Under the pieces are notes generated by a model. That model was not told the origin of the DNA, did not search any database, and saw only the letters and a program-made list of their open reading frames with translations. Shown piece after piece: positions 631 to 53,163 of a stretch of 64,000 nucleotides of DNA. Each line of letters begins with the position of its first letter. Position 1 is the first letter of the stretch. Location: contig JAKACD010000003.1 of assembly GCA_021821785.1 (NCBI GenBank), positions 8,462-72,461 on the forward strand, read 5' to 3'. This stretch comes from Thermoplasmata archaeon (GTDB lineage Archaea > Thermoplasmatota > Thermoplasmata > Lutacidiplasmatales > UBA184). Both the position numbers and the translations under genes were made by a program.

Positions 631-1398
631 ATGGCGCGTCGGGGCCGGCTCGTGGTGATCGAGGGCCCCTCGGGCGCGGGGAAGACGACGGTCGCCCGAC
701 GCGCCGCCGAGCTCCTCCACGGGTCCTATCTCGCCGAGGCGTTCGACCGTCTCCGCCCCTCCCCCTCGCTCGCCTTCTCGGACGAGGGCGAGCTGTTCGC
801 GATCGAGCGGCGGCTCCTCGCGGAGGAGCGCCGACGCGGGGCGGAGGCCGCCGCGCGCGTCCGCCGGGGCGAGACCGTCTTCGCGGACACCGGCTTTCTC
901 GGCCCGCTCACCTACACGGCCGGCCTGGTCGCCCGGGAAGGCGTCTCGCCCGAGCTGTTCGACCGGATCCGCCTCCTGGCGCGGCGTTCGGGCCGGACCC
1001 GGATCGCCCTCCCCGACCTCGTGGTCTACCTCGACGTCCGCTCCCGCACCGCGCGGGCCCGGGTCGCGGGCGACCCCCTCCGGCACCCGGCCGCCCTCGC
1101 GGGGCGGCACGAGCGGGTCGGCCGGTTCGAGCGCGCGTTCTACGTCACCACGTTCCGCGCCGCCTTCCCCAAGCGGTTCCGCCGTCTCTCGGCCGAGCCC
1201 TCCGTCGAGGAGATCGTGCGCCGCCTCGGCGCGCTCCTCGCGGCGCGGCCTTCGCCCCGCGGACCGCTACGGTCCGGGGCCCGGTCGCTCGACCGCCTCC
1301 TCGAGGGGCTCGTCCGCCGACGGCCCCCCCGCCGGCGGAACGGGCCGGCCGCCAGTCTTAAGAAGGTCGCCCGGTCTGGCCGGGACCCCCTTCCATGA
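631..1398 (+). CDS. P-loop nucleoside/nucleotide kinase-like protein (dNK/thymidylate-kinase-like fold)
   Basis: Internal ATG at 631 of ORF 112..1398. The sequence MARRGRLVVIEGPSGAGKTTVARR carries a Walker A motif. The upstream 173 aa of the tracked ORF are antisense to folP. The stop overlaps the Sm start (ATGA at 1395-1398). Confidence 0.55.
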   Translation: MARRGRLVVIEGPSGAGKTTVARRAAELLHGSYLAEAFDRLRPSPSLAFSDEGELFAIERRLLAEERRRGAEAAARVRRGETVFADTGFLGPLTYTAGLVAREGVSPELFDRIRLLARRSGRTRIALPDLVVYLDVRSRTARARVAGDPLRHPAALAGRHERVGRFERAFYVTTFRAAFPKRFRRLSAEPSVEEIVRRLGALLAARPSPRGPLRSGARSLDRLLEGLVRRRPPRRRNGPAASLKKVARSGRDPLP

Positions 1399-1607
1399 AG
1401 CCGCTCGATCTCCTCCAGCAGAGCCTCCACAAGCGGGTGCTCGTGGAGATGAAGGGCGGCCGCTCCTACCGGGGCGTCCTCGACGCCTACGACCAGCACC
1501 TGAATCTCGTCCTGTCGGCGGCCGAGGAGGTTGTCGGCGGGGAGGTCACTCCGCGCAGCGGGCTCACGCTCGTCCGGGGCGACTCGATCGTCTACATCTC
1601 ACCGTAG
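1395..1607 (+). CDS. Sm-like (LSm/SmAP) RNA-binding protein
   Basis: 70 aa. The Sm1/Sm2 pattern is present: VLVEMKGGRSYRGVLDAYDQHLNLVL...RGDSIVYISP. It lies directly upstream of eL37, a gene pair conserved in archaea. Confidence 0.9.
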   Translation: MKPLDLLQQSLHKRVLVEMKGGRSYRGVLDAYDQHLNLVLSAAEEVVGGEVTPRSGLTLVRGDSIVYISP

Positions 1608-1620
1608 GAGGCACTGACCG

Positions 1621-1782
1621 ATGGGAAAGGGAACACCGGCCCGCCGCGGCGGGAAGATCGTCCACATCATCTGCCGACGCTGCGGACGCCACTCCTACCA
1701 CCGCCAGAAGGGCGTCTGCGCGTCGTGCGGCTTCGGCGACTCTTCGCGCCGGCGCGGCTACCACTGGGCGAAGCTGAAGTGA
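1621..1782 (+). CDS. rpl37e: 50S ribosomal protein L37e (eL37)
   Basis: Below the ORF-track size cutoff, found by hand translation: MGKGTPARRGGKIVHIICRRCGRHSYHRQKGVCASCGFGDSSRRRGYHWAKLK*. It has the C4 zinc ribbon CxxC...CxxC. Confidence 0.9.
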   Translation: MGKGTPARRGGKIVHIICRRCGRHSYHRQKGVCASCGFGDSSRRRGYHWAKLK

Positions 1783-2332
1783 GTCGGCGGCCCCGGCCAC
1801 GCGGCCGAGGACGCGAGACCCACGGGCTCTCGAGAAGCAGATAGCGCAGCCGACGCGCTCGCGCCCGGCGGAGCCCGACGCGGGGGCCGACCGCGATCGG
1901 TCCGCGCCTCCCGCGCGACGGAAAGAGGAGGAACTTGCGACCCCGCGCGGCGTCCGCCCCATCGTCCTCGATGCGGATCCCGAGCGCCCGGCAGAGCCGG
2001 CCCGGTCCGCTCGGGCGGTCCCGCACCTCCCCGAGGGGCGCACCGGCGCGCAGGAGGACCGCCTCCCCCGGCCGGGTCACCAGGTTCGCGCAGACGACCT
2101 GGTGGATGCGGTAGACATAGAGGGTCCCCGGGCGCAGGAACATCGAGCGGTTCCGCCGGGTCGGGCCGCGGTAGGCGTGGTTCGCGGGATCGTGCGCGAC
2201 GTACGCTTCGGTTTCCACGAGGCGGACCGAACGGATCCCCCGACGGTCCCGGACCACGAACCGGTGCCCGAGGAGCTCCCGCGCGACGCGCTCGGTCGGT
2301 CGGTCGAAGAACGCCCGGCCCCGCCGCCGCAT
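1667..2332 (-). CDS. DNA-3-methyladenine glycosylase (MPG/AAG family)
   Basis: Family hallmarks are VETEAYVAHDPANHAYRGPTRRNRSMFLRPGTLYVYRIHQVVCANLV. The Arg-rich C-terminal tail overlaps convergent rpl37e, so the true functional C-terminus may be shorter. Confidence 0.85.
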   Translation of the reverse strand: MRRRGRAFFDRPTERVARELLGHRFVVRDRRGIRSVRLVETEAYVAHDPANHAYRGPTRRNRSMFLRPGTLYVYRIHQVVCANLVTRPGEAVLLRAGAPLGEVRDRPSGPGRLCRALGIRIEDDGADAARGRKFLLFPSRGRRGPIAVGPRVGLRRARARRLRYLLLESPWVSRPRPRGRGRRLTSASPSGSRAGAKSRRSRTTRRRPSGGGRSGVRSVGR

Positions 2333-2342
2333 CGCCCTCCCG

Positions 2343-3452
2343 CTAGAGCACCTTGCCTCGGTCGCAGAGCGGCTGGCCGTCGACCGCGACCGTCGCCTCG
2401 CCGACCGCGAGCCAAGAGAGGTAGCCGCAGCGGTTCCGGCCCCCGTAGAGCGTGTTCCCTCCGATCGCGAGCGTGACCGCGCCCTCCTCCTGGTCCTCGG
2501 CCTGCGGGACGCCGTGGGCGACGGCCGCGTTGAGCCCGAGCGCGAACAGGCTCACCGTCTCACGACCCCGAGGCGCGCCGACGAACTCCGACTCGAAGGC
2601 CTCCCCGCCCTCCGTGTACCAGTAGTTCCGCAGCCGGCCCCCCTCGACCTCCCACTGGCCGCCTTCGGCCCGGCCCCCCGCGAGGTAGCTCGGGCGGTTC
2701 GCGACGATCGTCCCCTGCGCGCTCCGCTCGTCGACCGCCACCACGACCGACCCCGCCGGCGCGGTCGCGAGGTGGCGTCCGAGGCGCAGGTCCTCGGCGT
2801 CGACCCGCCCGTCGTCGACCCACGGGCGTCGGCCGCGCAGGCGGAGGCGGAGCTCGGTGCCGTTCGGGGCCATGACGGTCAGCTCCCGCCCCCGGGAGAG
2901 CAGCCGGGCCGCGCGCGCCGCGCTCGCGCGCAGGGCCCCGTAGTCGACCTCGGTGATCCCGCGGATCAGCTGGCTGCGCCACGTGGCGCCCGGCACGTTC
3001 CAGTGCTCGGCCTGGGCGTCGGAGGCGTAGCCGAGCAGGCAGCGGACCCCGCGGACGCCGGCCGAGCGGGCCTGCATCAGCCACTCGTCGTCGGCGCCGA
3101 GGAACGGCGCGAGCAGGTTCGGCGGCAGGGCATGGAGTCGGGGTCGGTCGGCGGGACCGGGGAAGTAGACCAGCGCGTCGGCGCGCCCGAGCGCCGCCCG
3201 GATCGGCGTCGTGAGCCCGGACCAGCGGCGCGCCGACGGCGCGAGGTCGAGGCTCTTCCAGAACGCCGCCTCGTCCTCGAGCAGGAGGAACGGACGCGCG
3301 CCGACGCGGCGCGCCTCGGTGACGACCGCCGTCGCCCACGGGAGGGTGTGGTTCCAGCTCACCACGGCGAGGTGCTCGCCCTTGCGCAGGGCGAGGGCGC
3401 TCCCGACGAGCGCTCGGGCGACCGCGGGCGGGCTCGCCTCGTCCCCGGGCAT
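2343..3452 (-). CDS. M29 (aminopeptidase T/AmpS/NicX)-like protein
   Basis: Internal ATG at 3452 (MPGDEASPP...), 369 aa. The overall pattern is M29-like, ending ...EDQEEGAVTLAIGGNTLYGGRNRCGYLSWLAVGEATVAVDGQPLCDRGKVL. The upstream 120 aa of the tracked ORF are Arg/Gly/Ser junk overlapping the next gene. Confidence 0.65.
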   Translation of the reverse strand: MPGDEASPPAVARALVGSALALRKGEHLAVVSWNHTLPWATAVVTEARRVGARPFLLLEDEAAFWKSLDLAPSARRWSGLTTPIRAALGRADALVYFPGPADRPRLHALPPNLLAPFLGADDEWLMQARSAGVRGVRCLLGYASDAQAEHWNVPGATWRSQLIRGITEVDYGALRASAARAARLLSRGRELTVMAPNGTELRLRLRGRRPWVDDGRVDAEDLRLGRHLATAPAGSVVVAVDERSAQGTIVANRPSYLAGGRAEGGQWEVEGGRLRNYWYTEGGEAFESEFVGAPRGRETVSLFALGLNAAVAHGVPQAEDQEEGAVTLAIGGNTLYGGRNRCGYLSWLAVGEATVAVDGQPLCDRGKVL

Positions 3453-3477
3453 GACCGCCGGGAAAGGATGCGGGCGA

Positions 3478-4779
3478 TTAAGGATTCGAGCCGCGCCGCA
3501 CGCACGCCACCACGTCCGCGGCCGAGGCGCCGGGCCGGGCGAGCGCCCGGGCGACCCGGACCAGGAGCGCCCCGGCATCGTCGTACGGCGCCGAGAACCC
3601 CACCGTACGGCGTCGGAACGCGAAGCGACGCCACCCGCCGGACCGCCGGGCCGCTCGCTCGACCACCGCCGCGACCCGCCGGCCCCGACCGAAGTCGGCG
3701 AAGTCCTCTCGCACATCGCGCGGGAGACCGGCGGCCCGGGCGAGCGCGAGCAGGCGCTCGAGCTTCTCGGGCCGGTGCCGGCGGATCCGGTGGCCTTCGC
3801 CGAGGATCCCATTGAAGTAGAGGAACGGGCCGCCGACCTCGATCGCCTCGAGCAGCGAGCGGCTCCCGGTCACGATCCGCACGTCGGCCCGGGCGAACCG
3901 GGTGCGCCAGCGCCGCCACGGCTCGGGGTCGGTCGAGATCTTCCATCCCGTCGGGGCGGCAAACGTGCGCCACGGCCGGTTCGTGCGGACGTGGACCGAC
4001 GCCCGGTCGCCGACCGCGCGATGCAGCCCGTCCCGCACGGCCGGGGCGATCCGTTCGGCGCTCGCCGGGCTGGCGTACCACACCCACGCCGGGCGTGCGG
4101 ACCGAGCCTCGTCCCGCGCGGCCGCCCCGCGGCGCTCCGGCCAGAGGGGACCGACCTGGACGGCGGCGGGGAACTCCCGGGCGAACGCGCGGTCGGGCCG
4201 GAACGTGGCGTAGAGGTGGAGGACGTTCGCCCGGTCGAACGCCCGGAACCGCTCGAACGCCGATCGGAACGCCCGCACCTCCTCCGCGGCCGCGGCCCGC
4301 GCGACCCCGTCGGCGAGCGACCGCGAGCGGACCCCACCCTCCCGCAGCCGCTCCCGGGTCTCGGCGAGGCTCGTGAGCGTGCGGGCGAACTCCTCGAGGC
4401 TCACGTGGATCGTGCGGTCCGGCCCGTAGCGGGCCTCGATCTCGGCCGCCTCCTCCGCCCACGGGCCGGGACGCCCGAGCGGGCCGGGTCGGGTGGGGGC
4501 GGCGCTCACTCCGAACGACGGGCTGATCGTGAGGGCAACGGGCCGGGTCGGACGGAGGCGACGTACGCGCCGCAACGGCGGCCAGTCCCACGGTCCTTCG
4601 ACCGCCCGAGGCATCGGTCGACCGGCCGCCCGATAGAGGTGGATGGGCAGACCGACTCTCGCGAGGCGACGGCCGGCGGCGAGGACCTCCTCGATATCGC
4701 CGAGTCCGCCCCCGACGACGGCCGGCAGGAGATAGACATCGACCGGACCGGGCCGGGTCCGAGGCTCAGCGGACGCCAC
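3478..4779 (-). CDS. hypothetical protein, GT-B glycosyltransferase-like (family unresolved)
   Basis: 433 aa. The N-terminal beta-strand plus Gly-rich loop (VDVYLLPAVVGGGLGDIEEVLAAGRRLARVGLPIHLY) and the C-terminal ADVRIVTGSRSLLEAIEVGGPFLYF...H...KLERLL resemble GT-B nucleotide-sugar-binding halves. The start overlaps the upstream GNAT stop by 14 nt. Confidence 0.45.
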   Translation of the reverse strand: MASAEPRTRPGPVDVYLLPAVVGGGLGDIEEVLAAGRRLARVGLPIHLYRAAGRPMPRAVEGPWDWPPLRRVRRLRPTRPVALTISPSFGVSAAPTRPGPLGRPGPWAEEAAEIEARYGPDRTIHVSLEEFARTLTSLAETRERLREGGVRSRSLADGVARAAAAEEVRAFRSAFERFRAFDRANVLHLYATFRPDRAFAREFPAAVQVGPLWPERRGAAARDEARSARPAWVWYASPASAERIAPAVRDGLHRAVGDRASVHVRTNRPWRTFAAPTGWKISTDPEPWRRWRTRFARADVRIVTGSRSLLEAIEVGGPFLYFNGILGEGHRIRRHRPEKLERLLALARAAGLPRDVREDFADFGRGRRVAAVVERAARRSGGWRRFAFRRRTVGFSAPYDDAGALLVRVARALARPGASAADVVACVRRGSNP

Positions 4780-5707
4780 GGTAGAGCGTGAGGACGGGGA
4801 TGGCCTCCCGGAATCCGGCCCCCACGAGCGCGGCCCGGCCTCGTTCGTTCTCTCGCGGGACCATCGCGAGGACCCGAGGGCTCCCCCGGTCCGCGCACCA
4901 TCGGGTCGCGGTCGCGACCAGACCGAGCGCCCGCTCCGGATCGAGCGACTCGGCCAGGATCGGGCTCGAGAGGTGCCCTGCCTCGGTCGCCCGGGAGACC
5001 GCGGCGGCGACCCAGGCGACCGCCCCGGCGCCGTCGTCGATCACCCAGGCGGCGCGTTCGCTCGCGAGGAGGTCCCCTTCCCACGGCGAGCCGGTGAGCT
5101 CCCGCTCGGTGGCGGGCAACACCTCCTCGACGACCGCGGGGCGGACGCGGCGGGCGGTCGCGACCAGCGCACGGGCGTCCTCGGAACGGAACGGGCGAAG
5201 TCCCGGTACGGCGGCCGCGGGCGGCGCGCCGCCGTCGGGCCGTTCCTGGACAAAGTAGGCGGTCTCGCGCAGGGTCCGGAAGCCGAGCCGGTCGTAGAGC
5301 GCGCGCGCGGGCGTGTTCGCGGCGAGGACGTCCAGCACGAGGTACGGTCGTCGCCGGGCGCGGCTCGCGGCCCGGGCCCGCTCGAGGAGCGACTGCGCGA
5401 GGCCTCGACGGCGCCAGGCGGGGTCGACGACGACCATGCTGACATAGCCGGCCCGGCGCGAGAACGTCAGGAGGGTCGTGGCGACGAGACGGCCCGCCTC
5501 CTCGACCACGAAGAAGCGGAAGATCGGTCGGCCGACCAGGCGCAACAGACCGAGGACGAACCGGACGTCCCACCGGAAGATCCGGCGGACGACCTCGAAG
5601 AACCCCTCGGGACGGGTGCCGAGGAGCGCCTCCTCCTCGGGAAAGTACTGTTTCATGAAGCGCAGAAGGTCCGCGGCGTCCCGCCCTTGGAGTTCGCGGA
5701 CCGTCAC
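4766..5707 (-). CDS. GNAT family N-acetyltransferase (two GNAT-like halves)
   Basis: GTG start at 5707 forms a GTGA overlap with the HEAT-protein stop (5704-5706). The acetyl-CoA motif is VVVDPAWRRRGLAQSLLERA...NTPARALYDRLGF. Confidence 0.7.
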   Translation of the reverse strand: MTVRELQGRDAADLLRFMKQYFPEEEALLGTRPEGFFEVVRRIFRWDVRFVLGLLRLVGRPIFRFFVVEEAGRLVATTLLTFSRRAGYVSMVVVDPAWRRRGLAQSLLERARAASRARRRPYLVLDVLAANTPARALYDRLGFRTLRETAYFVQERPDGGAPPAAAVPGLRPFRSEDARALVATARRVRPAVVEEVLPATERELTGSPWEGDLLASERAAWVIDDGAGAVAWVAAAVSRATEAGHLSSPILAESLDPERALGLVATATRWCADRGSPRVLAMVPRENERGRAALVGAGFREAIPVLTLYRGVR

Positions 5708-7209
5708 GGCTCGTCGTCCTCGCCCGAGCTCGGGATCGCCGACTCGAAGAGGAGGCGGACGGTCGGCGGGGCCCGGTCGAGCGCGAGCTCGGGGAGCGGC
5801 AGCCGGGCCGCCCGGTCGAGCTCCTCCTCCGTGAGGCGTTCTCGCGCGTCCACGAGCGCCCGGTGGATGAGCGGGTCGGGGAGGCCGTGCGCAAGGCGGC
5901 CGAGCGCCTGGACGACCGCATCGAAGACGCGGCTCTCCGCGTCGGAGCGGAGGGGGTTCTCCCCCTGCGCGACCCGGAGGTGGTTCGGCACATCGATGGG
6001 GCGCGTCTCGTACAGCAGTCGCACGAGCGCCTCGCGCGCTCCGTCGTCCGCGAGCACGCCGAGCGCCCAGACCGCCGCGAGCCGCACCTCGGCGGCGGGA
6101 TCGAGGAGCTCCTCCCGGATCCGGGGGGCGGCCTCGGCGAGTCCCAGACGGCCGAGGGCGTAGATCGCGCCGCGGCGGGGCCAGGGGTGCTCGTCGCGCA
6201 GCAGGCCGAGCAGCGCGGAGAGGTGGGTCGGTCCCCCGACCGCGCCGAGCGCCACCGCCGCGGCGCCCCGGACCGACCACGCCGGGTCGGTGAGATGGTC
6301 GGCCGCGACCGGCGCGCCCTCCGGAGCGCCCATCTCGCCGAGCGCGTGGATCGCGCAGACGCGGACCCAGTGCGCCGGATGCTCGGCCGCTCGGAGCAGC
6401 TCGGGCAGGGCCTCCCGCGCCCCGATGCGGCCGAGCGCGATCAGCACCGCCGGCTTCTCCCACGTCTCGGGTCGATCGAGAAGGGCGAGGAGCGGGCCCA
6501 CGCTCGTGGGGTCGCGCCGTCGGCCCAGCACGACCGCGGCCGCCACCCGGACCCGACGCGACGGATCGGCGAGGTGGGCGCGGAGGATCGGGAGATCGAC
6601 CGGATCGTCCGAGCGGCCGAGCGCGAGCAGCGCCTCCCGGCGGACCCGGTCGTGCGGGTCCTCGAGGAGCGGGCGAAGGCAGGCACGGGCCTCGTCGGTC
6701 CCCAGCCGACCGAGCGCGGTCGCGACCGCGCGGCGTACCTCGGGAGCGGGATCGTTCCCGTGCGCGGAGAGCACCGGCAGCGAGCGCGCATCCTCGAGAA
6801 GGGCGAGCGCGTAGCCGGCTCGGGTCCGCACCGCCGCTTCGGGATCGGAGAGCGCGTGCTCGAGGGCCTCCCGGCTCTCCGCGTGGCCGATCGCCCCGAG
6901 CGCATCGACCGCCGCCCCCCGCACCGCCGGGTCCGGGTCGGTGAGCGCCGTGACGAGCGTCGAGCGGCCCCGCGGGTCCTTCAGGATCCCGAGCGCGACC
7001 GCAGCCGTCTCCCGGATCCCCGGGACCGGGTCGCTGAGCGCGACCAGGAGTGGACCCAGGTCCGCGACGTACCCCCGCGCCACGCTGGCCCGGATCGCCG
7101 CCGCCCGCTCCGACGGGGTCCGGGGCGGGGTCGTCTTCTTCCGACCGCCCGCGCGTCGGCGCGCGGCCGTCCCGGGCCTCTTCGAGCGATGGCGGGCTCG
7201 GTCGGGCAC
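5704..7209 (-). CDS. HEAT-repeat (PBS-lyase HEAT-like) protein
   Basis: 501 aa with more than 10 tandem repeats of the type L..aL.DpdpaVR..Aa.ALG.iG. The N-terminus is basic. GTG start. Confidence 0.8.
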   Translation of the reverse strand: MPDRARHRSKRPGTAARRRAGGRKKTTPPRTPSERAAAIRASVARGYVADLGPLLVALSDPVPGIRETAAVALGILKDPRGRSTLVTALTDPDPAVRGAAVDALGAIGHAESREALEHALSDPEAAVRTRAGYALALLEDARSLPVLSAHGNDPAPEVRRAVATALGRLGTDEARACLRPLLEDPHDRVRREALLALGRSDDPVDLPILRAHLADPSRRVRVAAAVVLGRRRDPTSVGPLLALLDRPETWEKPAVLIALGRIGAREALPELLRAAEHPAHWVRVCAIHALGEMGAPEGAPVAADHLTDPAWSVRGAAAVALGAVGGPTHLSALLGLLRDEHPWPRRGAIYALGRLGLAEAAPRIREELLDPAAEVRLAAVWALGVLADDGAREALVRLLYETRPIDVPNHLRVAQGENPLRSDAESRVFDAVVQALGRLAHGLPDPLIHRALVDARERLTEEELDRAARLPLPELALDRAPPTVRLLFESAIPSSGEDDEP

Positions 7210-7221
7210 GCCGAGCGGACC

Positions 7222-9567
7222 CTATGCGGGGCTAAAAGGTCCGCTCGGCCCCGGGCCGTTCGCGAGCTCCGATTGCGTCGCACGCTCGGGCGAGCGGTAC
7301 GGCGCGCGCGTCGGGGCCAGGGGCCCGCCCCACCGCTCGAGCAACGTCGCCCGGTCGATCCCGAGGGGGGCGAGGAGGGTCTCGGCGTCCCGTGCGAGCA
7401 GGTCGAGGTACGCCCCGACGTCGTAGCGCTCGTCGCCCGTGAGCTGCTCCGCGACCGCGACCCGACGGCGGAACGACCGACTCTCCCGATCGAGGAGGAC
7501 GAACCGGACGACCTCGCCCGCCTCCCGCCGGGCCCCGGCCTCCGCGAGCTGGCGCAGGGCGGCGACCGAGTCGGTGAACGTACCGAACGCCTCGGGCGCC
7601 TGGCCGACCCGGTGGCTCACGAGGAGCTCCTCGACCGGCCAGTCGCCCGCCGCGACGCGGGCGGCGATGAGGTCGGCCCGGGAGAGGGCCCGGGGGAGCA
7701 GCGCCCGGACGCCGGCCGCGTCGCGCGCGGTACGAAAGAGGGTCAGGACCTCGCTCTCGAACCGACGGACGAGCCCCGGCGTGTCGTGACGACGGCCGCC
7801 GATCCCGCGGAGTTTGAACTCCCCGTGCTCGTAGAGGCCGTAGTACCGGTTCGGCACGCCGAGCCCGTGCGTCACCGCCGGCAGGAACACGATCCAGCGG
7901 TACCGCCCCTCGTAGCCGAGGGGGAGGTCGAACCGCTCGCTCATGCGGGCCGCGAACCCCTCGGGGTCCGCGGGCCGCCCGAGGTCGACGGGCCGCAGCC
8001 AGAGCGAGTCAACGATCCCGTGCAGCACCGCGTAGCCGGCCCGCTCGGCCTCCGGAAGGAGGGCGGCGATGAGCTCCCGGGCGTAGGCGTTGATCGCCTC
8101 GTGGCATTCGATCCGGCCGAAGCGGGCGTTGCGGTAGCCCTGGTAGCCGAACGCCGTCACGAGGATCCACTTGAGCATCTTGACTCGGCGGCGGAGACGG
8201 CTCGCCTCCTCCGCGGGGAGGCCGGGGCGCTTCAGGGCCGCCTTGTAGGCGAGGCGTCGGGCGAGGAGCGGGGCGAGGGTGCGGGGGATGAGGCCGACCC
8301 GGCGGGTGCAGGAGCGGTAGCCGAGCCCCGGAGCCCGGATCGGGCTCTGCGGACAGCAGCGGCACTCGAGCGTCTCCGCGGAGAGGTTCTTGCGGACCAT
8401 GATGTGCGGGTAGAGGCTCGCGAAATCGAACTCGTCGACGTGGTCGTGGACCCCGACCGGCGGGAGGAAGATCACCCCCCCGCGGTCGGCCGCGACCAGG
8501 CGGTCGGCCCGGCGGAACCCCTCGGGACGGTTCTTCTTCCACGGCACGTGCGCGCCGAGCGCGAGCGCGTGGGCCATCTCCATCGCCGTGAAGCAGGTCC
8601 CCGGCGACTGGCGGACGACGGTCGCGAGCGAGAGGCGGGAGAGCCGGGCCGCGTCGACCAGGCCGGCGATCTCGGCGTCGTCGTAGAGGAAGGAGTTCTC
8701 TCGGTCGATATGGAACCGACCGGGGATCGGGTACGATGCGGAACGATGCAGCACGCGACCGTACGACTCGAACGAGCGCGCGGGCCGGCTCGCCCGGAAG
8801 CCGACCCGCTCGCGGCCGAGGGAGAACTCGGACGGAGGCAGCCCGCACGCCGCTGCCCGCCGGTAGAGCCACGGGAGGTCGAAGGAATCTCCGCCCTGGG
8901 TGAGCAGGATGTCGGGATCGCTCCGCGCGAGCTCATCGACCAGCGCGCGCAAGAGGTCCGCCTCGGGCCCCTCGAGCGTCACCTCGCCGAGGCGGACCGA
9001 CCCGATACGGCCGTCCGGCGGCGGGAGCCGGCCCCGGCGCATCCCGGCGAGACGGACCTCGAGCCGGGCGAGGCGCAGCGGCGGGGGAAGGTACTCGATC
9101 GCCTCGGGAGGCTCGGTCGCGGTGAGCGCGGCCCCGGTCCCCACGACCGGGGCGAACGGGTAGAGCGCATGGCCGAGGTGGTAGAGCTGCGGGGGGAGGA
9201 GGTCGACGTCGTAGAGCGAGAACGTCTCGTACTGCCCGGCGGCGTCGACCTCCCGGGCGAGCGCCCGGCGCTCCGGGTTCCGCATCGGGGTGACCGTGAG
9301 GACCGGGCGGGGGCGCCGATCGTAGAGCGACGGGCGCCCCGTCCCCAGCGCGACCGCGGCGACGGTCGGTCGCCCGGCGAGCGAGCGGGCGAGGTCGACG
9401 AGCGCGGGGCGGGGTCCCGTGACCAGGAACGGGGGACGGTACTCGACGGCGGTGCGGCGGACCCGTCCGGTCCGTCGCGACTTCACCCAGAGGACGATCG
9501 AGCGGCCGTCCTCGCTCTCGGTGATGTCGAGAAGCCAGCCGTCGGGGGTCGACGTCGGTCCGCTCAC
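7222..9567 (-). CDS. polB: family B DNA polymerase, divergent (altered Exo I, motif B, motif C, KKRY)
   Basis: 781 aa. Motif A is DFASLYPH, Exo II is GGDSFDLPWLYRRA, and motif B reads KWILVTAFGYQGY. Motif C reads HGIVDS (8005-8022) instead of YxDTDS. Exo I reads LEV instead of DxE. The segment LRGIGGRRHDTP matches tRGle.vRRD. Confidence 0.85.
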   Translation of the reverse strand: MSGPTSTPDGWLLDITESEDGRSIVLWVKSRRTGRVRRTAVEYRPPFLVTGPRPALVDLARSLAGRPTVAAVALGTGRPSLYDRRPRPVLTVTPMRNPERRALAREVDAAGQYETFSLYDVDLLPPQLYHLGHALYPFAPVVGTGAALTATEPPEAIEYLPPPLRLARLEVRLAGMRRGRLPPPDGRIGSVRLGEVTLEGPEADLLRALVDELARSDPDILLTQGGDSFDLPWLYRRAAACGLPPSEFSLGRERVGFRASRPARSFESYGRVLHRSASYPIPGRFHIDRENSFLYDDAEIAGLVDAARLSRLSLATVVRQSPGTCFTAMEMAHALALGAHVPWKKNRPEGFRRADRLVAADRGGVIFLPPVGVHDHVDEFDFASLYPHIMVRKNLSAETLECRCCPQSPIRAPGLGYRSCTRRVGLIPRTLAPLLARRLAYKAALKRPGLPAEEASRLRRRVKMLKWILVTAFGYQGYRNARFGRIECHEAINAYARELIAALLPEAERAGYAVLHGIVDSLWLRPVDLGRPADPEGFAARMSERFDLPLGYEGRYRWIVFLPAVTHGLGVPNRYYGLYEHGEFKLRGIGGRRHDTPGLVRRFESEVLTLFRTARDAAGVRALLPRALSRADLIAARVAAGDWPVEELLVSHRVGQAPEAFGTFTDSVAALRQLAEAGARREAGEVVRFVLLDRESRSFRRRVAVAEQLTGDERYDVGAYLDLLARDAETLLAPLGIDRATLLERWGGPLAPTRAPYRSPERATQSELANGPGPSGPFSPA

Positions 9568-9571
9568 ACGG

Positions 9572-9826
9572 TCAGCGTCGGGGGGCCCGCTCCGGAGGCT
9601 CGGGGCGAATCCGCGCGGCCAGGTCGGTGAGGACCGAGAGAAGGATCGACTCGAGGAGATCGGGGCTACCGACGTACGTCGCCTGGGCGGCGTAGCGACG
9701 GGCTCCCGAACGGACGAGGTCGAACGCGGCCCGCTCCTCGGGCGTCGTCAGGAGCCGCGCGAACTCGTCCCAGCGTTTCATCCGCTCCTCGAGCGCCTGC
9801 CGGTAGGTCGGGGCGGTACGTCCCAC
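9572..9826 (-). CDS. small hypothetical protein (69-84 aa, helical)
   Basis: The ORF lies between the RadB-like gene and polB. An internal ATG at 9781 forms an ATGA overlap with the upstream stop (9778-9780). Only 4 nt separate its stop from the polB GTG start. No recognisable domain. Confidence 0.45.
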   Translation of the reverse strand: MGRTAPTYRQALEERMKRWDEFARLLTTPEERAAFDLVRSGARRYAAQATYVGSPDLLESILLSVLTDLAARIRPEPPERAPRR

Positions 9827-10662
9827 GCAATCACCTCCTCGGCGGAAACGCCGCCGAACTCCTCGAGGCCGCGCTGTCCGCTCGGCCGGGCCACGAAGGT
9901 GAGCCGGGCATCGTCCCGCAGGGCCCGCAGGCGCAGGCCGGACGGCCCGCGCTCGAACGTGACGACGTCGGCCCAGCGGGGGCCCTCCTCGGCGAGCCCG
10001 GGGAACGTCGCGATCCCACCCGGGCCGAGCGTCAGGAGCAACGGCACCCGGACCCGGTCGATGAGCGGGACGAGGGTGCGGGCGAGGTGACGGAGGAGCG
10101 CGAGCCGTTCCTCCGCGGGGACCTCGGGGTCGGCGAACAGCGCCGGAAGGTCATGGCCGACGAGCAACGTCGGCGGGTGACGCCGCGCCTCGGCCTCCCA
10201 GCCGTCGACGAGCGCGACCATCTGATAGACGGTGAACGCCCGCGCGAGCCGGATCCCCTCGAGCGTCCGGCGCGCATCGACCCCCAACGACCGGCCGAGC
10301 TCGCCGATGCGGTACGGATGGAACCGGTTCGCCCCTTCGAGAAGGGAGATCCGTCCCCGGACGACCGCGCTTCCCGCGTAGAGGAGCTCGAGGATCGGCT
10401 CGACGGCGGCCCGGGGACCCGTCCAGAGCGTCAGCTCCCCGGGCGCGAAGCGCCGGTCGAGCCAGGGAAACAGCGCCGGCGCGGCGGGCAGGAGCGGTCC
10501 GGCCGACCTCCGTCGGGGACGCGCCCGGGCCCGCCGGGGGAACGGGAGGCGCGGAAGCCGGGGGACCGCCGGGGGAACGCTCTCGGGCAGGAACGGCGCC
10601 CACGGTTCGGGTTCCGGCACCTCCATCGGGACCGCCGGGGCGACCGGGGAACCGTCGAACAT
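9778..10662 (-). CDS. RadB/RecA-fold protein with degenerate Walker A and B (predicted pseudo-ATPase)
   Basis: After a ~65-aa Pro/Arg-rich N-terminus, LDRRFAPGELTLWTGPRAAVEPILELL...ISLLEGANRFHPYRIGELGRSLGVDARRTLEGIRLARAF...TLLVGHDL follows the archaeal RadB layout (FAPG..t.vyGp.gsGKT...yvDtEg.FspeR...). GKT is replaced by VEP, and hhhhD by LLVGHD. Confidence 0.5.
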   Translation of the reverse strand: MFDGSPVAPAVPMEVPEPEPWAPFLPESVPPAVPRLPRLPFPRRARARPRRRSAGPLLPAAPALFPWLDRRFAPGELTLWTGPRAAVEPILELLYAGSAVVRGRISLLEGANRFHPYRIGELGRSLGVDARRTLEGIRLARAFTVYQMVALVDGWEAEARRHPPTLLVGHDLPALFADPEVPAEERLALLRHLARTLVPLIDRVRVPLLLTLGPGGIATFPGLAEEGPRWADVVTFERGPSGLRLRALRDDARLTFVARPSGQRGLEEFGGVSAEEVIAWDVPPRPTGRRSRSG

Positions 10663-10753: not shown

Positions 10754-11542
10754 CTATCCGTCCCGGGAGAGCTCGGGGGCATCGAGCCGTCCGCTCCCGG
10801 GCGGGGGCGGGAGCCCGAGCTCCTCGGAGAGCGTGCGGCAGTTCACGGCCGCGTCCCCCCGGAAGTGGTTGTTGAAGAACCCGTAGATGGTCGCCACCTG
10901 CTCGGTCAGCGCGCGCACCCGGGGGACCCAGGCCAGGAGCTCGGGAAGGGAATAGAGATAGTCGTACCAGAGGGGGCTCCCGTGGCCGTGCCAGCGCACG
11001 TAGGCGAACGGGGCGGTCACCTCGAACGCGATGGGGAGGTGCGGACCGTCCACGATCACGTGCGCGAGGCCGAACTCCCGCAGGAGCTCGTAGGACTCCC
11101 GGACCAGCCAGGAGCGCTCCCGGAACTCGACCGCGACCGGGAGGTCCCGGGGGAGCGTCTCGTAGAACCGGCGGACGGTCGCCGCCTCGAACGGAAGGGA
11201 CGGAGGGAGCTGGAGGAGCGCGGCGGTGAACTTCCCCGCCTCTCGAATCGGCTTCAGGACCGCGAGGAAGCGGGCGAGCTCCTCCTCGGTGCCGACCAGG
11301 CGCAGGTCGTGCGTGATCGTCTGGGGGAACTTCGCCGCGAAGCGGAACCGGGCCGGCGTGCGGTGGACCCAGGAGGCGGCGACGGAGGGCGGCGGCAGGC
11401 GATAGAACGTGGAGTTGACCTCGACGATCGGGAAGAGCTTCGCATAGTAGGCCAACCGATCGCTGACCCCCCGCGGCGGGTAGACCCGACCGACCCATTC
11501 GGGGTAGTCCCAGCCGCTGGTCCCGAGCAGGATGTCGCCCAC
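10754..11542 (-). CDS. DUF72 (UPF0759/YecE-like) family protein
   Basis: 262 aa. The pattern LGTSGWDYPEWVGRVYP...YAKLFPIVEVNSTFYRLP...VAVEFRERSW...FFNNH is typical of DUF72. Confidence 0.85.
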   Translation of the reverse strand: MGDILLGTSGWDYPEWVGRVYPPRGVSDRLAYYAKLFPIVEVNSTFYRLPPPSVAASWVHRTPARFRFAAKFPQTITHDLRLVGTEEELARFLAVLKPIREAGKFTAALLQLPPSLPFEAATVRRFYETLPRDLPVAVEFRERSWLVRESYELLREFGLAHVIVDGPHLPIAFEVTAPFAYVRWHGHGSPLWYDYLYSLPELLAWVPRVRALTEQVATIYGFFNNHFRGDAAVNCRTLSEELGLPPPPGSGRLDAPELSRDG

Positions 11543-11612: not shown

Positions 11613-12917
11613 CTACCGCCGAAGGAGCGGGGCCTTCCCCACCGAGGGCGTCGCGAGCGCCGAGGTGGGGATAGCGCCCGGCGCACTGTCCGCGGTCGTC
11701 CGCCCCTGCCAGACCGGCGACCGCCAGAAGGTCAGGAGCCCGTAGATCGTGATCGGGAAGAGGAGCGCGGTGCCGAGCAGCCCGGCGGCGAGGGTGCGGG
11801 CCCGGTCGCCCGGAGGAAGGCGACGCGCCACCGCGGCGGAGAAGGTGCCGGCGGCGACGAGGCCGATCAGCGTCTCGGCGGAGAGGAAGAACCGCAGGAC
11901 GAGCGGCCCGTGCGCCGCGTACGGGAGCCGAAGGAACCCGTTCAACGAGGCGCCGAGGAGGGCAAGGAACTGCTCGCCGAGGTGCACGTAGAGCGGGAGG
12001 CGGACGATCCCGAGCGCGAGCGCGAGGAGCGGGAGCGCGTAGGTGCCGGCAAGCTCGAGGCGGTAGAAGAGGCCCGGGTCCTGGGGGCCGTTCCCCGAGA
12101 GATAGCGGCCGAGGCGGATCCAGCTCGAGCGGGACCAGCGGACGTTCTGGCGGACGAAGGCGGCGAGGCTCTCGGGTCGCTCGGTGATCGCCCCGACCGA
12201 GTAGGCCTTCACCGTGCGCAGGCCCTGGCGCAGCACATGGTCGGTGAGCTGCCAGTCGTCGCCGAGGCGGGTCGGCCGGCCGAGCACCGTGAGGTGCTGG
12301 AAGTCGTCCGATAGGACGTACGGGCGCACGACGTCGGTGCGGAACATCATGCACGCGCCGTCCAGGTAGAGGACGTTCCCGCGCGAGGACATCGCCCGAA
12401 GCACGACCTCGCGGGCCCGTTCCACGAACTCCGAGCAGCGGGCCGCGAGCGAGCCGTTGGGGCGGACGTACAGGTTCGCCCCGACCCCGCCGACCCCTGC
12501 CTCGAAGTACGTGGAGAGGTCCCGAACGGCGTGCTCGGGGATCTCGGTGTCGCTGTCCACAAAGAGGACGAACTCGGTCGAGACCTGATGGACGCCGGCG
12601 GCGAGCGCCCGCTTCTTCCCTCCTCGCTCGGCGAGCCCCACGAACTCCGCGCCGGCCTCGGTCGCGAGGGTACGGTACGGCTCGTCCACCCCGTCGCCCA
12701 CGACGATCACCCGGCACCCGTCCCGGGTCACCGAGCGCAGGCACTCCGCGAACCGCTCCGGGCGCTCGGCGTGCACGGGCACCACGATCGTGACGTCCCG
12801 CGGGTCGGCGGGCGGCGCACGGCCGACCGACCCCCGGTGCCGGGACAGGAAGGCGTTGACGAGCAGGTAGACGACCGGGACGAGGCCGACGAAGAACGCG
12901 ATGTCCCAGATGAACAC
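11613..12917 (-). CDS. family 2 glycosyltransferase, processive (hyaluronan/chitin/cellulose-synthase-like), membrane-integral
   Basis: Motifs are VVPVHAE, DSDT, GDDWQLT and QNVRWSRS (the QxxRW motif), plus N- and C-terminal TM segments. The start is uncertain: GTG at 12917 was chosen, and TTG near 12978 is possible. The tracked ORF upstream of this is antisense to the ferredoxin gene. Confidence 0.75.
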   Translation of the reverse strand: MFIWDIAFFVGLVPVVYLLVNAFLSRHRGSVGRAPPADPRDVTIVVPVHAERPERFAECLRSVTRDGCRVIVVGDGVDEPYRTLATEAGAEFVGLAERGGKKRALAAGVHQVSTEFVLFVDSDTEIPEHAVRDLSTYFEAGVGGVGANLYVRPNGSLAARCSEFVERAREVVLRAMSSRGNVLYLDGACMMFRTDVVRPYVLSDDFQHLTVLGRPTRLGDDWQLTDHVLRQGLRTVKAYSVGAITERPESLAAFVRQNVRWSRSSWIRLGRYLSGNGPQDPGLFYRLELAGTYALPLLALALGIVRLPLYVHLGEQFLALLGASLNGFLRLPYAAHGPLVLRFFLSAETLIGLVAAGTFSAAVARRLPPGDRARTLAAGLLGTALLFPITIYGLLTFWRSPVWQGRTTADSAPGAIPTSALATPSVGKAPLLRR

Positions 12918-13076
12918 GATCGCGATCGGACCTCCCCCCTGCCGCGCCCCGCCCTGCTGTGGGGAGCGAGCCCTCCCCCACAAAGAGGTTTGTCCCGAGG
13001 GGCCCCGATTCCTCGGGACCCGGCCGGGGGCCAGACGGGCCGACGGGCTCGGAACCCTACTTCGCGGGGCGGCCAA

Positions 13077-13087
13077 CACTAAATACG
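13077..13087 (+). promoter_or_regulatory. TATA-like box (CACTAAATACG) upstream of the ferredoxin gene
   Basis: An AT-rich island in a GC-rich context, ~35 nt upstream of the ATG at 13122. GGGAGGA lies just upstream of the start. Confidence 0.4.
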
Positions 13088-13121
13088 GGGCGTCGATGGT
13101 TTCCGCGGACGGGAGGAACCG

Positions 13122-42629: not shown

Positions 42630-42662
42630 GGCGTTGCCGAATAGATGGGCGGGTTCGAGTAC

Positions 42663-53038: not shown

Positions 53039-53062
53039 ATCGGACGGCGGGGTCCAACCTTC

Positions 53063-53114: not shown

Positions 53115-53163
53115 ACGCGCCGGGCGCCGCCGGGGGGCGTATCCCCGGGAACGGAGGAGAGCG

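What the first reader, a model, noticed from the sequence alone, without database searches (positions are those of the whole stretch)
2343..10662. Tightly coupled gene array built around a divergent PolB, with several apparently de-catalysed homologues
Seven consecutive minus-strand genes, plus MPG 10 nt further downstream, are separated by overlaps or at most 25 nt. The RadB-like gene (10662-9778) overlaps the small ORF by ATGA, and a 4-nt gap follows to polB (9567-7222). A 12-nt gap leads to the HEAT-repeat protein (7209-5704), which overlaps the GNAT (5707-4766) by GTGA. The GNAT overlaps the GT-B-like protein (4779-3478) by 14 nt. A 25-nt gap leads to the M29-like protein (3452-2343), and a 10-nt gap to the MPG glycosylase (2332-1667). 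Three members look like homologues whose canonical catalytic residues are replaced: RadB-like Walker A/B, PolB motif C/Exo I, and M29 His/Asp ligands. The same window encodes PolD (DP2), so this PolB need not be the replicase. A polymerase combined with a RecA-fold pseudo-ATPase, a small subunit-sized protein, a HEAT scaffold and an acetyltransferase is not an operon I recognise as described. Partial precedents exist from memory. In Pyrococcus, radB sits in the PolD operon and RadB binds PolD. Crenarchaeal PolB1 has two small accessory subunits. My inference is that this is a non-replicative polymerase-centred repair, tolerance or regulatory complex.
Basis: partly seen in the sequence, partly recalled or inferred. 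Interest (0 to 1): 0.75.

Follow-up and report, generated by a model that had tools for sequence, protein, structure and literature searches.

The report
Known PolB2 operon abutting undescribed five-gene module
The gene array is real, but its polymerase core is the already-described archaeal iRadA-PPB2-PolB2 "mutasome" (damage-tolerance polymerase) operon. The HEAT, acetyltransferase, glycosyltransferase-fold, dead-peptidase and DNA-glycosylase genes behind it form a separate conserved module that also exists without the polymerase.

Summary
Eight co-directional minus-strand genes (10662-1667) are separated by overlaps or by at most 25 nt, and PolD DP2 is in the same window.

The RadA-like, small and PolB genes are the known iRadA-PPB2-PolB2 operon (Makarova 2014; Timinskas 2025), with its known neighbour DUF72 upstream. 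This Thermoplasmata clade (UBA184/Lutacidiplasmatales-like MAGs) is already listed in the 2025 paper's supplement.

One coordinate needs correcting. PPB2 starts at GTG 9826 (84 aa, N-terminal MGRT motif, strong SD), not at ATG 9781.

PolB2 keeps the motif A Asp and the second motif C Asp (IVD). Sulfolobus Dpo2, which has IID, is an active lesion extender, so "de-catalysed" is unlikely for the polymerase.

HEAT-GNAT-X-M29-like-MPG follows PolB2 in 51 of 56 sufficiently long clade loci. It follows PolB2 in 0 of 45 more distant PolB2 loci with at least 1.5 kb downstream. Two related lineages carry it in the same order without the PolB2 trio. It is therefore an independent module, joined to the operon only in this lineage.

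X has a GT-B fold and no sequence family. The M29-like protein has the M29 fold but all five metal-ligand positions are replaced. The module's function is unknown. Interest is moderate.

The parts
10754..11542 (-). DUF72 (TIM-barrel protein related to UV-damage endonuclease). A known neighbour of PolB2 operons and probably a separate transcription unit.
   Evidence: Pfam PF01904, E = 1.9e-63. GC3 of 0.93 in this frame. Listed as enriched next to polB2. The gap to iRadA is 91 nt here; its median is 486 nt in 73 related loci.
9778..10662 (-). iRadA: RadA/Rad51-fold protein without an ATPase site. It carries a PCNA-binding-like motif, QRGLEEFG, at residues 263-270 (window 9853-9876).
   Evidence: Weak Rad51/RadA/Dmc1 hits over residues 102-176. 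GPRAAVEP (residues 82-89) stands at the Walker A position. It is 22-37% identical to the gene upstream of PPB2-PolB2 in distant PolB2 loci. The supplement to PMC11791011 lists a motif of the same type (QRGMEEFG) for a member of this clade.
9572..9826 (-). PPB2 (arCOG07300 / Pfam DUF8156): 84-aa helical subunit with the N-terminal MGRT arm. The start is corrected to GTG 9826.
   Evidence: The translation begins (M)GRTAPTYR, with GGAGGTGA upstream. The MGRT motif with Arg3/Arg9 is described in PMC11791011. Orthologues carry PF26485. Most conserved protein of the array within the clade (mean top-residue frequency 0.85).
7222..9567 (-). PolB2-group family B DNA polymerase. Motif A is DFASLYP (residues 381-387), motif B is KWILVTAFGYQGY and motif C is HGIVDSLWL (IVD, residues 518-520).
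   Evidence: NCBIfam PRK05761.1-4, E = 2.6e-119. Alignment to P. abyssi PolB shows the three motifs. It is 32-36% identical to catalogued PolB2 sequences. The clade motif FGYQGYRNARFGRIECHE is present in the PolB2 catalogue.
5704..7209 (-). HEAT-repeat protein (about 8 HEAT_2 units) with a basic, poorly conserved N-terminal ~45 aa. First gene of the second module.
   Evidence: HEAT_2, E = 1e-85. Orthologues 38-52% identical head the PolB2-less module in L163/L165. Absent in L029, L032 and L054.
4766..5707 (-). GNAT acetyltransferase of 313 aa. The N-terminal GNAT domain has an intact acetyl-CoA loop (RRRGLA, residues 99-104). The C-terminal ~150 aa have no family hit.
   Evidence: Acetyltransf_1, E = 7.8e-15. 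Best NCBIfam hits are RimI-like and fall below cut-off. A 4-nt overlap with HEAT is conserved (median -4).
3478..4779 (-). X: orphan protein with a GT-B glycosyltransferase fold. Invariant residues include GGGLGD (23-28) and TGSR...HRPEK (304-339).
   Evidence: No Pfam or NCBIfam hit, even across 110 members. No PDB sequence hit. AlphaFold2 model with pLDDT 92.2 and pTM 0.91. Foldseek matches GT1 antibiotic glycosyltransferases, UGTs, EarP, SenB and BshA, probability 1.0, E about 1e-6. 503 homologue clusters found; every source-given name among the 120 listed is 'hypothetical protein', attributed to Thermoplasmata archaeon where an organism is given.
2343..3452 (-). M29-fold protein lacking all five canonical metal ligands; a pseudo-aminopeptidase.
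   Evidence: Weak PF02073 hit. AlphaFold2 model with pLDDT 87.7. Foldseek matches PepS, AmpT, AmpS, NicX and CgnE, E down to 4e-19, TM 0.6-0.73. Ligand columns read S, L, T, L, W against E, E, H, H, D. Conservation within the clade is 69-97% identity.
1667..2332 (-). MPG/AAG-family 3-methyladenine DNA glycosylase with the VETEAY motif. Last gene of the module. Its 3' end overlaps the convergent L37e gene.
   Evidence: PF02245, E = 3.2e-41. GGGAGGG Shine-Dalgarno-like sequence upstream. Follows the M29-like gene in the clade (median gap -23 nt), in L163 and in L165.

Best explanation
The locus is a composite of two conserved modules set head-to-tail on one strand.

Module 1 (10662-7222, with DUF72 just upstream) is the known archaeal PolB2 'mutasome' operon.
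- By homology with the modelled and characterised systems, PolB2 binds one iRadA and a PPB2 trimer. The MGRT arm of one PPB2 inserts between PolB2 and iRadA.
- The complex is probably recruited to PCNA through the iRadA C-terminal QRGLEEFG motif.
- It would act as a non-proofreading, damage-tolerance (lesion/mismatch extender) polymerase alongside the replicative PolD encoded elsewhere in the window.

Module 2 (7209-1667) is HEAT, GNAT, a GT-B-fold protein, a metal-less M29-fold protein and MPG.
- It is an independent five-gene operon found in high-GC soil Thermoplasmata.
- In the UBA184/Lutacidiplasmatales-like clade it lies 12 nt behind polB2, so the two are probably co-transcribed by read-through.
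- This would give a lineage-specific DNA-damage 'super-operon' combining TLS and base excision.

Inferred, not shown: the four non-glycosylase proteins of module 2 form a protein- or ligand-modifying assembly. The M29-fold protein would be a non-catalytic binding subunit, GNAT and GT-B the modifying enzymes, and HEAT the scaffold. Its expression is tied to MPG. It is not a set of polymerase subunits.
For: Core trio:
- Family hits.
- Motif A Asp, motif B Lys and IVD in motif C.
- PPB2 MGRT arm.
- iRadA lacks Walker A and carries a PIP-like motif.
- Gene order 1a, DUF72-iRadA-PPB2-PolB2, and this clade's own sequences appear in the published catalogue.
- The trio is retained in 80 distant loci.
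- Dpo2 is active and lacks exonuclease activity.

Two modules:
- All five tail genes follow PolB2 in 51 of 56 clade loci with at least 7.5 kb downstream. HEAT or GNAT follows in 61 of 62 loci with at least 3 kb.
- None follows PolB2 in 45 distant PolB2 loci with at least 1.5 kb downstream, 30 of which have at least 3 kb.
- L163/L164 and L165 carry orthologues of HEAT (38-52%), GNAT (31-39%), X (32-51%), M29-like (43-44%) and MPG (55-62%) in the same order and tightly spaced. No iRadA, PPB2 or PolB2 lies in those loci.
- In L163 DUF72 directly follows MPG.

Tight spacing is conserved.

Folds:
- X has a GT-B fold.
- The M29 fold is present with the ligands lost.
- M29-derived non-peptidase peptide binders exist: CgnB and CgnE.
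- HTH fusions of the M29-like family point to a binding or sensor role.
Against: - No transcript data. The 12-nt PolB2-HEAT junction has no obvious Shine-Dalgarno sequence, and archaeal promoters could not be scanned.
- Within the clade the flanks (A-ATPase, Fer4, L37e/LSM, Pterin_bind) are also syntenic. Conservation of adjacency alone therefore does not prove a functional link between the two modules.
- Whether the PolB2-less lineages hold PolB2 elsewhere in their genomes is unknown.
- Only three lineages define module 2.
- The functional proposal for HEAT, GNAT, GT-B and M29-like rests on fold analogies only.
- Contexts of more distant M29-like paralogues are heterogeneous.
Confidence: 0.75

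Rival explanations
1. First reader's model. All eight products, including the HEAT scaffold and the acetyltransferase, are subunits or dedicated regulators of one polymerase-centred complex built largely from de-catalysed homologues.
For: Overlaps or gaps of at most 25 nt between all eight genes. The order is kept in 51 of 56 clade loci. PolB2, PPB2 and M29-like are similarly strongly conserved.
Against: The tail exists without the trio, and the trio exists without the tail in every distant locus examined. Individual tail genes are missing in some clade members: HEAT in L029/L032/L054 and M29-like in L074/L077. GNAT, MPG and probably X look catalytically intact. PolB2-type enzymes are active polymerases.
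Confidence: 0.1
2. Pure neighbourhood accident. Module 2 is an unrelated housekeeping or metabolic operon, for example synthesis or modification of a small glycoside or of a protein N-terminus. It merely sits next to polB2 and MPG because local synteny is frozen in this lineage, and there is no shared regulation or DNA-damage role.
For: The whole region, from the A-ATPase to L37e/LSM, is syntenic across the clade. The closest fold relatives of X and the best GNAT hits act on small molecules or proteins, not DNA. Distant M29-like paralogues sit in unrelated contexts.
Against: MPG is joined to the M29-like gene by overlaps or gaps of at most 64 nt in three lineages, despite rearrangement of DUF72 and the presence or absence of the trio. 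A strong Shine-Dalgarno sequence before MPG fits an internal operon gene. Upstream neighbours vary while the array stays intact.
Confidence: 0.15
3. Older view of PolB2 (Rogozin 2008; Makarova 2014). The polymerase is catalytically dead, and the trio serves a structural or regulatory role at stalled forks or origins rather than synthesising DNA.
For: The first Asp of DxD is replaced (IVD). Motif B Asn/Ser are changed to Val/Thr, and Exo I cannot be aligned. iRadA has no ATPase site.
Against: The motif A Asp and the second motif C Asp are retained. Sulfolobus Dpo2, with IID, has robust polymerase activity and extends from lesions. [quoted passage not shown]
Confidence: 0.1

Closest known systems
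Archaeal PolB2 mutasome operon, arrangement 1a (DUF72-iRadA-PPB2-PolB2); Makarova et al. 2014 (PMC4104785), Timinskas et al. 2025 (PMC11791011)
   Same: Same three genes in the same order and orientation. IVD motif C, MGRT arm on PPB2, ATPase-less iRadA with a PCNA-type motif, and DUF72 upstream. Sequences of this clade are in the published table.
   Different: Here five further co-directional genes follow polB2 after 12 nt. The published neighbourhood analysis reports only orc1/cdc6, lexA, SRAP and DUF72 as enriched. A term search of the stored (truncated) supplements found no HEAT, acetyltransferase, M29, aminopeptidase or glycosylase.
E. coli Pol V mutasome (UmuD'2C-RecA-ATP)
   Same: A translesion polymerase working with a RecA-family protein and a small oligomeric accessory protein, as argued in PMC11791011.
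   Different: Pol V is a Y-family polymerase using active RecA and is under LexA control. Here the polymerase is B-family, the RadA paralogue is inactive and dedicated, and no LexA is present.
CgnB/CgnE of crocagin biosynthesis (PDB 6zsu; PMC10070186)
   Same: M29-aminopeptidase-derived fold without aminopeptidase activity, used as a peptide-binding protein. CgnE is a Foldseek hit of the window's M29-like model (E = 1.3e-8).
   Different: Similarity is at fold level only (13% identity). CgnB still binds Zn. The context differs: a bacterial RiPP cluster there, an archaeal operon ending in MPG here. No precursor peptide gene is evident.
GT-B glycosyltransferases (GT1 antibiotic GTs/UGTs, EarP arginine rhamnosyltransferase, SenB, BshA)
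   Same: Two Rossmann-like domains with a conserved inter-domain cleft. Foldseek probability 1.0. EarP gives the highest target-normalised TM-score (0.48).
   Different: No sequence-level membership in any Pfam or NCBIfam GT family. TM-scores are only 0.32-0.48. Donor and acceptor are unknown. The apparent likeness of GGGLGDI...RLAR and TGSRSLLEA..GGPF to EarP motifs rests on my memory only and was not tested.
RadB-PolD linkage in Pyrococcus and the small subunits of crenarchaeal PolB1
   Same: A RecA-family paralogue, or small proteins, associated with an archaeal DNA polymerase.
   Different: RadB keeps its Walker motifs and is linked to PolD (from memory), and PolB1-binding proteins are unrelated to PPB2 (from memory). 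The gene here groups with iRadA next to PolB2, while PolD DP2 lies about 40 kb away.

Membership tests
PolB2 mutasome operon | Family B polymerase of the PolB2 group, with the first Asp of the DxD motif usually substituted | tested here: met
   HGIVDSLWL aligns to YIDTDGLYA of P. abyssi PolB. The same IVD is annotated for clade members in the catalogue. It is 32-36% identical to catalogued PolB2 sequences.
PolB2 mutasome operon | Proofreading exonuclease active site lost | tested here: inconclusive
   The N-terminal 190 residues, including Exo I, do not align to solved PolBs. The Exo II region aligns (GGDSFDLPWL) with Asn changed to Gly and the Asp kept. The Pfam exo1 hit is weak (1.4e-6, residues 195-289 only).
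PolB2 mutasome operon | iRadA: RadA/Rad51 core without ATPase residues and without the N-terminal helical domain | tested here: met
   Only marginal Rad51/RadA hits to the core, residues 102-176. No GxxxxGK[ST]; GPRAAVEP stands at that position. The N-terminal 60 aa are Pro-rich and unconserved. Homologous to the gene upstream of PPB2 in 80 distant loci. No structure model was made.
PolB2 mutasome operon | PPB2: helical protein of about 85-90 aa with a conserved N-terminal MGRT arm | tested here: met
   84 aa starting (M)GRTAPTYR. Orthologues carry PF26485/DUF8156. The local Pfam copy gave no hit for the window protein.
PolB2 mutasome operon | Three genes adjacent and co-directional (order iRadA-PPB2-PolB2) | tested here: met
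   Coordinates 10662-9778, 9826-9572 and 9567-7222, with a 49-nt overlap and a 4-nt gap.
PolB2 mutasome operon | Heteropentamer PolB2:iRadA:PPB2(3), clamp binding and damage-inducible expression | not testable with these tools
   Only single-chain prediction was available and there are no expression data. The PIP-like motif QRGLEEFG was seen by sequence only.
Peptidase M29 (aminopeptidase T/S, PepS) | M29 two-domain fold | tested here: met
   Foldseek against 4icr, 2ayi, 1zjc and 7cn3: E from 4e-19 to 7e-17, TM 0.55-0.73.
Peptidase M29 (aminopeptidase T/S, PepS) | Dinuclear metal site. AmpS ligands are Glu253, Glu319, His348, His381 and Asp383; the residue numbers are from memory, but the columns were fixed by alignment to AmpS, PepS and NicX fragments. 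| tested here: not met
   The columns read S234, L302, T327, L345 and W347 in the window protein. Most relatives with E < 1e-30 also lack them, whereas P0462 keeps all five and P0471 keeps four. It is therefore M29-derived and not a member of the active peptidase family.
GT-B glycosyltransferases | Two facing Rossmann-like domains | tested here: met
   AlphaFold2 pLDDT 92.2. 107 PDB matches with E of 1e-3 or better; all 50 listed are GT-B glycosyltransferases.
GT-B glycosyltransferases | Sequence membership in a defined GT family, and known donor and acceptor | tested here: not met
   No Pfam or NCBIfam hit for the window protein or for any of 110 homologues. No PDB sequence hit with the profile. 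Activity is untestable here.
GNAT acetyltransferases | GNAT domain with the acetyl-CoA-binding loop (R/Q-x-x-G-x-G/A) | tested here: met
   PF00583, E = 7.8e-15, above cut-off, residues 61-143. RRRGLA at residues 99-104. No equivalog-level assignment: every NCBIfam hit is far below cut-off.
MPG/AAG 3-methyladenine DNA glycosylase | Pur_DNA_glyco domain with the catalytic Glu in the ETEAY motif (human AAG Glu125, from memory) | tested here: met
   PF02245, 141 bits against a cut-off of 27, covering profile positions 2-179 of 181. VETEAY at residues 39-44 is conserved in the clade. NCBIfam equivalogs fall below cut-off.
   No Walker A. The gene is linked to PPB2-PolB2, not to DP2, which lies at 49622-53080.

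The most novel reading that the evidence does not exclude
HEAT-GNAT-GT-B-M29-like is a previously unrecognised DNA-damage-response assembly. It would be a protein (or damaged-base/ligand) recognition and modification machine built around a metal-less M29-fold binder, and would function with the MPG glycosylase. In Lutacidiplasmatales it would have been wired directly onto the PolB2 translesion polymerase, for instance to modify or recruit the mutasome or PCNA at alkylation-derived abasic sites.
Probability: 0.15. Interest if true: 0.6.

Novelty: new variant of a known kind. Interest (0 to 1): 0.35.

Why it matters
The core needs no new explanation. It adds a well-conserved, PolD-containing Thermoplasmata example to the PolB2 mutasome family, and it corrects the PPB2 start.

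The new element is the five-gene module behind it. It contains two families without functional annotation: an orphan GT-B-fold protein and a ligand-less M29-fold protein that elsewhere is fused to HTH domains. In three lineages the module is welded to a base-excision glycosylase. In one large soil clade it is also welded to a translesion polymerase.

If the physical link reflects co-regulation, it would point to unknown accessory steps in archaeal alkylation-damage tolerance. It would also give a context-based handle on two uncharacterised protein families. If it does not, the locus illustrates how frozen synteny can mimic a 'complex'.

Tried and rejected
- Single-sequence and profile searches of X and M29-like against PDB sequences gave only chance hits.
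- A Pfam scan of all 110 X homologues at E up to 10 found no recurrent family.
- A PADLOC scan gave only generic HEAT hits and a PolB-like segment inside a homing-endonuclease model. There is no indication of a defence system.
- The sigma-70 promoter and intrinsic-terminator scan is not meaningful for an archaeon. It gave 0 promoters, and terminators at background level. An AT-rich-patch scan was inconclusive.
- The idea that X is fused to M29-like in the 740-aa relatives was rejected. The N-terminal ~380 aa of those proteins carry IS630-type HTH domains in their first ~140 residues (HTH_23/29/32), not X.
- The idea that the M29-like family is generally linked to DNA or nucleotide-damage genes is not robust. 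AlkZ-like lies near it in L166 and NUDIX in L169/L170, but L171-L174 and L168 show nothing of the kind.
- DOHH-like function for the HEAT protein was considered and dropped, because no His-Glu motif pairs are visible in the repeats (DOHH features from memory).
- The genome-contig scan returned only the 80 closest of 341 PolB2 loci. Distant PolB2 contexts therefore had to come from a metagenome scan seeded with catalogue sequences.

Full report
**1. Observation**

The window is about 72% G+C, so mechanical ORFs are abundant. Even so, the eight proposed minus-strand genes are all present. They are supported by third-position GC, by family hits or by conserved homologues.

- PPB2 to PolB2: 4-nt gap.
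- PolB2 to HEAT: 12-nt gap.
- HEAT/GNAT: 4-nt overlap.
- GNAT/X: 14-nt overlap.
- X to M29-like: 25-nt gap.
- M29-like to MPG: 10-nt gap.

The exception is the small gene, which starts at GTG 9826 rather than ATG 9781.
- The 84-aa product begins (M)GRTAPTYR. This is the conserved 'MGRT' N-terminal arm, with Arg3 and Arg9, that defines PPB2.
- It is preceded by GGAGGTGA.
- Orthologues are called at 84-85 aa.
- The resulting 49-nt overlap with the upstream gene recurs in related loci (-49 at the 10th, 50th and 90th percentile of 77).

PolD DP2 is in the window at 49622-53080 (-). The organism is an archaeon of the Thermoplasmata. The closest loci are MAGs labelled Thermoplasmata archaeon, and they include UBA184 and a 'Ca. 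Lutacidiplasmatales' MAG. This group is the high-GC soil TMEG lineage (PMC9287336).

**2. The core is a known system**

The literature tools showed that the RadA-like, small and PolB genes are the iRadA-PPB2(arCOG07300)-PolB2 operon.
- It was recognised by Makarova and Koonin (PMC4104785).
- Timinskas et al. 2025 (PMC11791011) analysed it as a heteropentameric 'PolB2 mutasome'.
- They found DUF72, SRAP and orc1/cdc6 (archaea) or lexA (bacteria) enriched nearby.

In the window a DUF72 gene (10754-11542, E = 1.9e-63) lies 91 nt upstream of iRadA. This gives their arrangement '1a'. Their supplement already lists members of this clade, identifiable by FGYQGYRNARFGRIECHE, IVD and an iRadA PCNA-type motif QRGMEEFG. 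The window has QRGLEEFG at iRadA residues 263-270.

Alignment to P. abyssi PolB shows:
- Motif A: DFASLYP, Asp kept.
- Motif B: KWILVTAFGYQGY.
- Motif C: IVD in place of DTD, second Asp kept.
- Exo II: aligns, with its Asp kept.
- Exo I: not alignable.

S. islandicus Dpo2 has IID. It is a robust, exonuclease-free polymerase specialised in extending from lesions and mismatches (PMC8764526). 'De-catalysed' is therefore an unsafe reading for the polymerase. It is correct for iRadA, which has GPRAAVEP at the Walker A position.

**3. The tail within the clade**

Three contigs carrying close PolB2 homologues (75-81% identity) and 79 GTDB species-representative loci (64-90%) were compared with the window proteins by tblastn.
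- All five tail genes follow PolB2 on the same strand in 51 of 56 loci with at least 7.5 kb downstream.
- HEAT or GNAT follows in 61 of 62 loci with at least 3 kb downstream.

Median spacings:

| Junction | Median gap (nt) |
|---|---|
| iRadA/PPB2 | -49 |
| PPB2/PolB2 | 2 |
| PolB2/HEAT | 21.5 |
| HEAT/GNAT | -4 |
| GNAT/X | -41 |
| X/M29-like | 26 |
| M29-like/MPG | -23 |
| DUF72/iRadA | 486 |

The DUF72-iRadA gap is also highly variable, so DUF72 is probably a separate unit.

Exceptions:
- HEAT is missing in L029, L032 and L054.
- M29-like is missing in L074 and L077.
- Insertions occur in L060, L070, L079 and L080.
- L055 is rearranged.

The flanks (A-type ATPase and ferredoxin upstream, L37e/LSM and Pterin_bind downstream) are also syntenic in this clade. 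Within-clade conservation alone therefore does not prove a functional link.

**4. Beyond the clade: two modules**

A metagenome scan was seeded with catalogue PolB2 sequences from other Thermoplasmatota, Bathyarchaeota and a bacterium. It returned 80 loci whose PolB2 is 28-41% identical to the window's.
- Nearly all of those with enough upstream sequence keep iRadA-PPB2-PolB2, and many keep DUF72.
- None shows HEAT, GNAT, X, M29-like or MPG at tblastn E of 1e-3 or better.
- 45 of these loci have at least 1.5 kb downstream of PolB2, and 30 have at least 3 kb.

The converse test started from a full HMMER search of the M29-like profile. The nearest out-of-clade relatives were then looked up.
- L163/L164 (GCA_021798195.1) reads Fer4(-) | 525 aa - GNAT - 458 aa - M29-like - MPG - DUF72 | L37e, LSM.
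- L165 reads DUF72 ... 487 aa - GNAT - 421 aa - M29-like - MPG ... L37e, LSM.
- tblastn confirms orthology of all five genes: HEAT 38-52%, GNAT 31-39%, X 32-51%, M29-like 43-44%, MPG 55-62%.
- It finds no iRadA, PPB2 or PolB2 in these loci.

HEAT-GNAT-X-M29-like-MPG is thus a self-standing operon-like module, and the PolB2 trio is a separate one. Only in the window's clade are they fused into one array.

**5. What the tail proteins are**

- **X** has no Pfam, NCBIfam or PDB sequence relative, even with profiles or across 110 homologues.
  - Its AlphaFold2 model is confident (pLDDT 92.2, pTM 0.91) and has a GT-B glycosyltransferase fold.
  - Foldseek matches include GT1 antibiotic GTs, plant UGTs, EarP, SenB, BshA and GlgM, with probability 1.0 and E about 1e-6. 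TM-scores are only 0.32-0.48, as expected when domain orientation differs.
  - Invariant residues cluster in GGGLGD (23-28), H125-S127-EEFAR and TGSR...HRPEK (304-339).
- **The M29-like protein** (model pLDDT 87.7) matches PepS, AmpT, AmpS and NicX (E down to 4e-19, TM 0.6-0.73). It also matches the non-peptidase CgnE.
  - The alignment was anchored on AmpS, PepS and NicX fragments and on ligand-retaining relatives.
  - The five metal-ligand columns read S, L, T, L, W.
  - The protein is nevertheless 69-97% conserved across the clade.
  - Its wider family has 145 clusters at E < 1e-30. It includes fusions to IS630-type and ArsR-type HTH domains.
  - CgnB and CgnE are a precedent for M29-derived peptide-binding proteins without aminopeptidase activity.
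- **GNAT** has an intact acetyl-CoA loop and RimI-like best hits that fall below cut-off.
- **HEAT** is a canonical repeat protein with about eight repeats.
- **MPG** is a full-length AAG-family glycosylase with VETEAY.

**6. Mechanism**

Shown:
- The identity and arrangement of module 1.
- The independence of module 2.
- The folds of X and M29-like.
- The loss of the M29 metal ligands.

Inferred from published work:
- PolB2, iRadA and a PPB2 trimer form a PCNA-tethered, proofreading-free extender polymerase for damage tolerance.

Inferred from context only:
- Read-through co-expression of module 2 with module 1 in this clade.
- A DNA-damage theme, with MPG creating abasic sites, DUF72 related to UV-damage endonuclease and PolB2 performing TLS.
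- A role for HEAT, GNAT, GT-B and M29-like as a binding and modification assembly rather than as polymerase subunits.

Contexts of more distant M29-like paralogues are heterogeneous: AlkZ-like once, NUDIX twice, otherwise unrelated. They do not settle the function.

**7. Verdict**

The polymerase-centred tolerance complex is real but already described. The HEAT, GNAT, GT-B and M29-like genes are not shown to be part of it, and they belong to an autonomous, apparently undescribed module. No mention of that module was found in the PolB2 papers, in their stored supplements or in the Lutacidiplasmatales paper.

Novelty: a lineage-specific variant of a known operon, plus an uncharacterised companion module. 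Interest is moderate (0.35).

Noticed in passing
window 1621-1782 (+) and 1667-2332 (-): The MPG ORF runs 116 nt into the convergent ribosomal protein L37e gene (Pfam E = 3.8e-17), with LSM at 1395-1607 (+). MPG residues beyond about 175 are Arg/Ser-rich and not conserved among orthologues. The functional C-terminus may therefore be shorter, or the overlap may simply be tolerated in this stop-poor high-GC genome.
   Followed up: partly
window 53055-53119 (+): A fluoride riboswitch (Rfam RF01734, 39.7 bits against a gathering score of 34). It overlaps the 5' end of the minus-strand PolD DP2 gene (49622-53080) and sits immediately upstream of a plus-strand 149-aa ORF (53107-53553).
   Followed up: no
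P0371, P0377, P0390, P0431 and P0471 (relatives of window 2343-3452): The ligand-poor M29-like domain occurs fused to DNA-binding HTH domains. In proteins of about 740 aa the domains are IS630-type HTH_23/29/32. In a 485-aa protein related to PH1932 the domain is an ArsR-type HTH_20. This suggests a sensor or effector-binding role for the fold.
   Followed up: partly
L163 9162-10585; L165 372-1142: DUF72 changes place between lineages. It is upstream of iRadA in the window's clade, directly after MPG with a 4-nt overlap in L163, and several genes upstream of the HEAT gene in L165. It nevertheless stays in the neighbourhood of the module.
   Followed up: partly
L055; L060, L070, L079, L080: Rearranged members of the clade. 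In L055 PolB2 is separated from an inverted DUF72-iRadA-PPB2 block and has no tail within 2.3 kb; misassembly is possible. In the other four, insertions of 1-5 kb lie between PolB2 and HEAT, between PPB2 and PolB2, or between X and M29-like.
   Followed up: no
L001 1511-4651: The A-ATPase catalytic subunit of a related 1.7-Mb contig carries an intein with a LAGLIDADG endonuclease. The window's copy (13803-15557, 584 aa) is intein-free.
   Followed up: no
L004 (DAIDCO010000015.1): The closest GTDB locus (PolB2 90% identical, full array present) is titled 'bacterium isolate clean3188'. Its content is clearly that of a Thermoplasmata archaeon, so the record is probably mislabelled.
   Followed up: no
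window 11613-13382 (-) and 40224-42662 (-): A GT2-family membrane glycosyltransferase lies between DUF72 and the ferredoxin/A-ATPase genes; L001-L003 have no Pfam-annotated GT2 gene at that position. A STAND-type AAA_16 + TPR NTPase lies further along the window.
   Followed up: no
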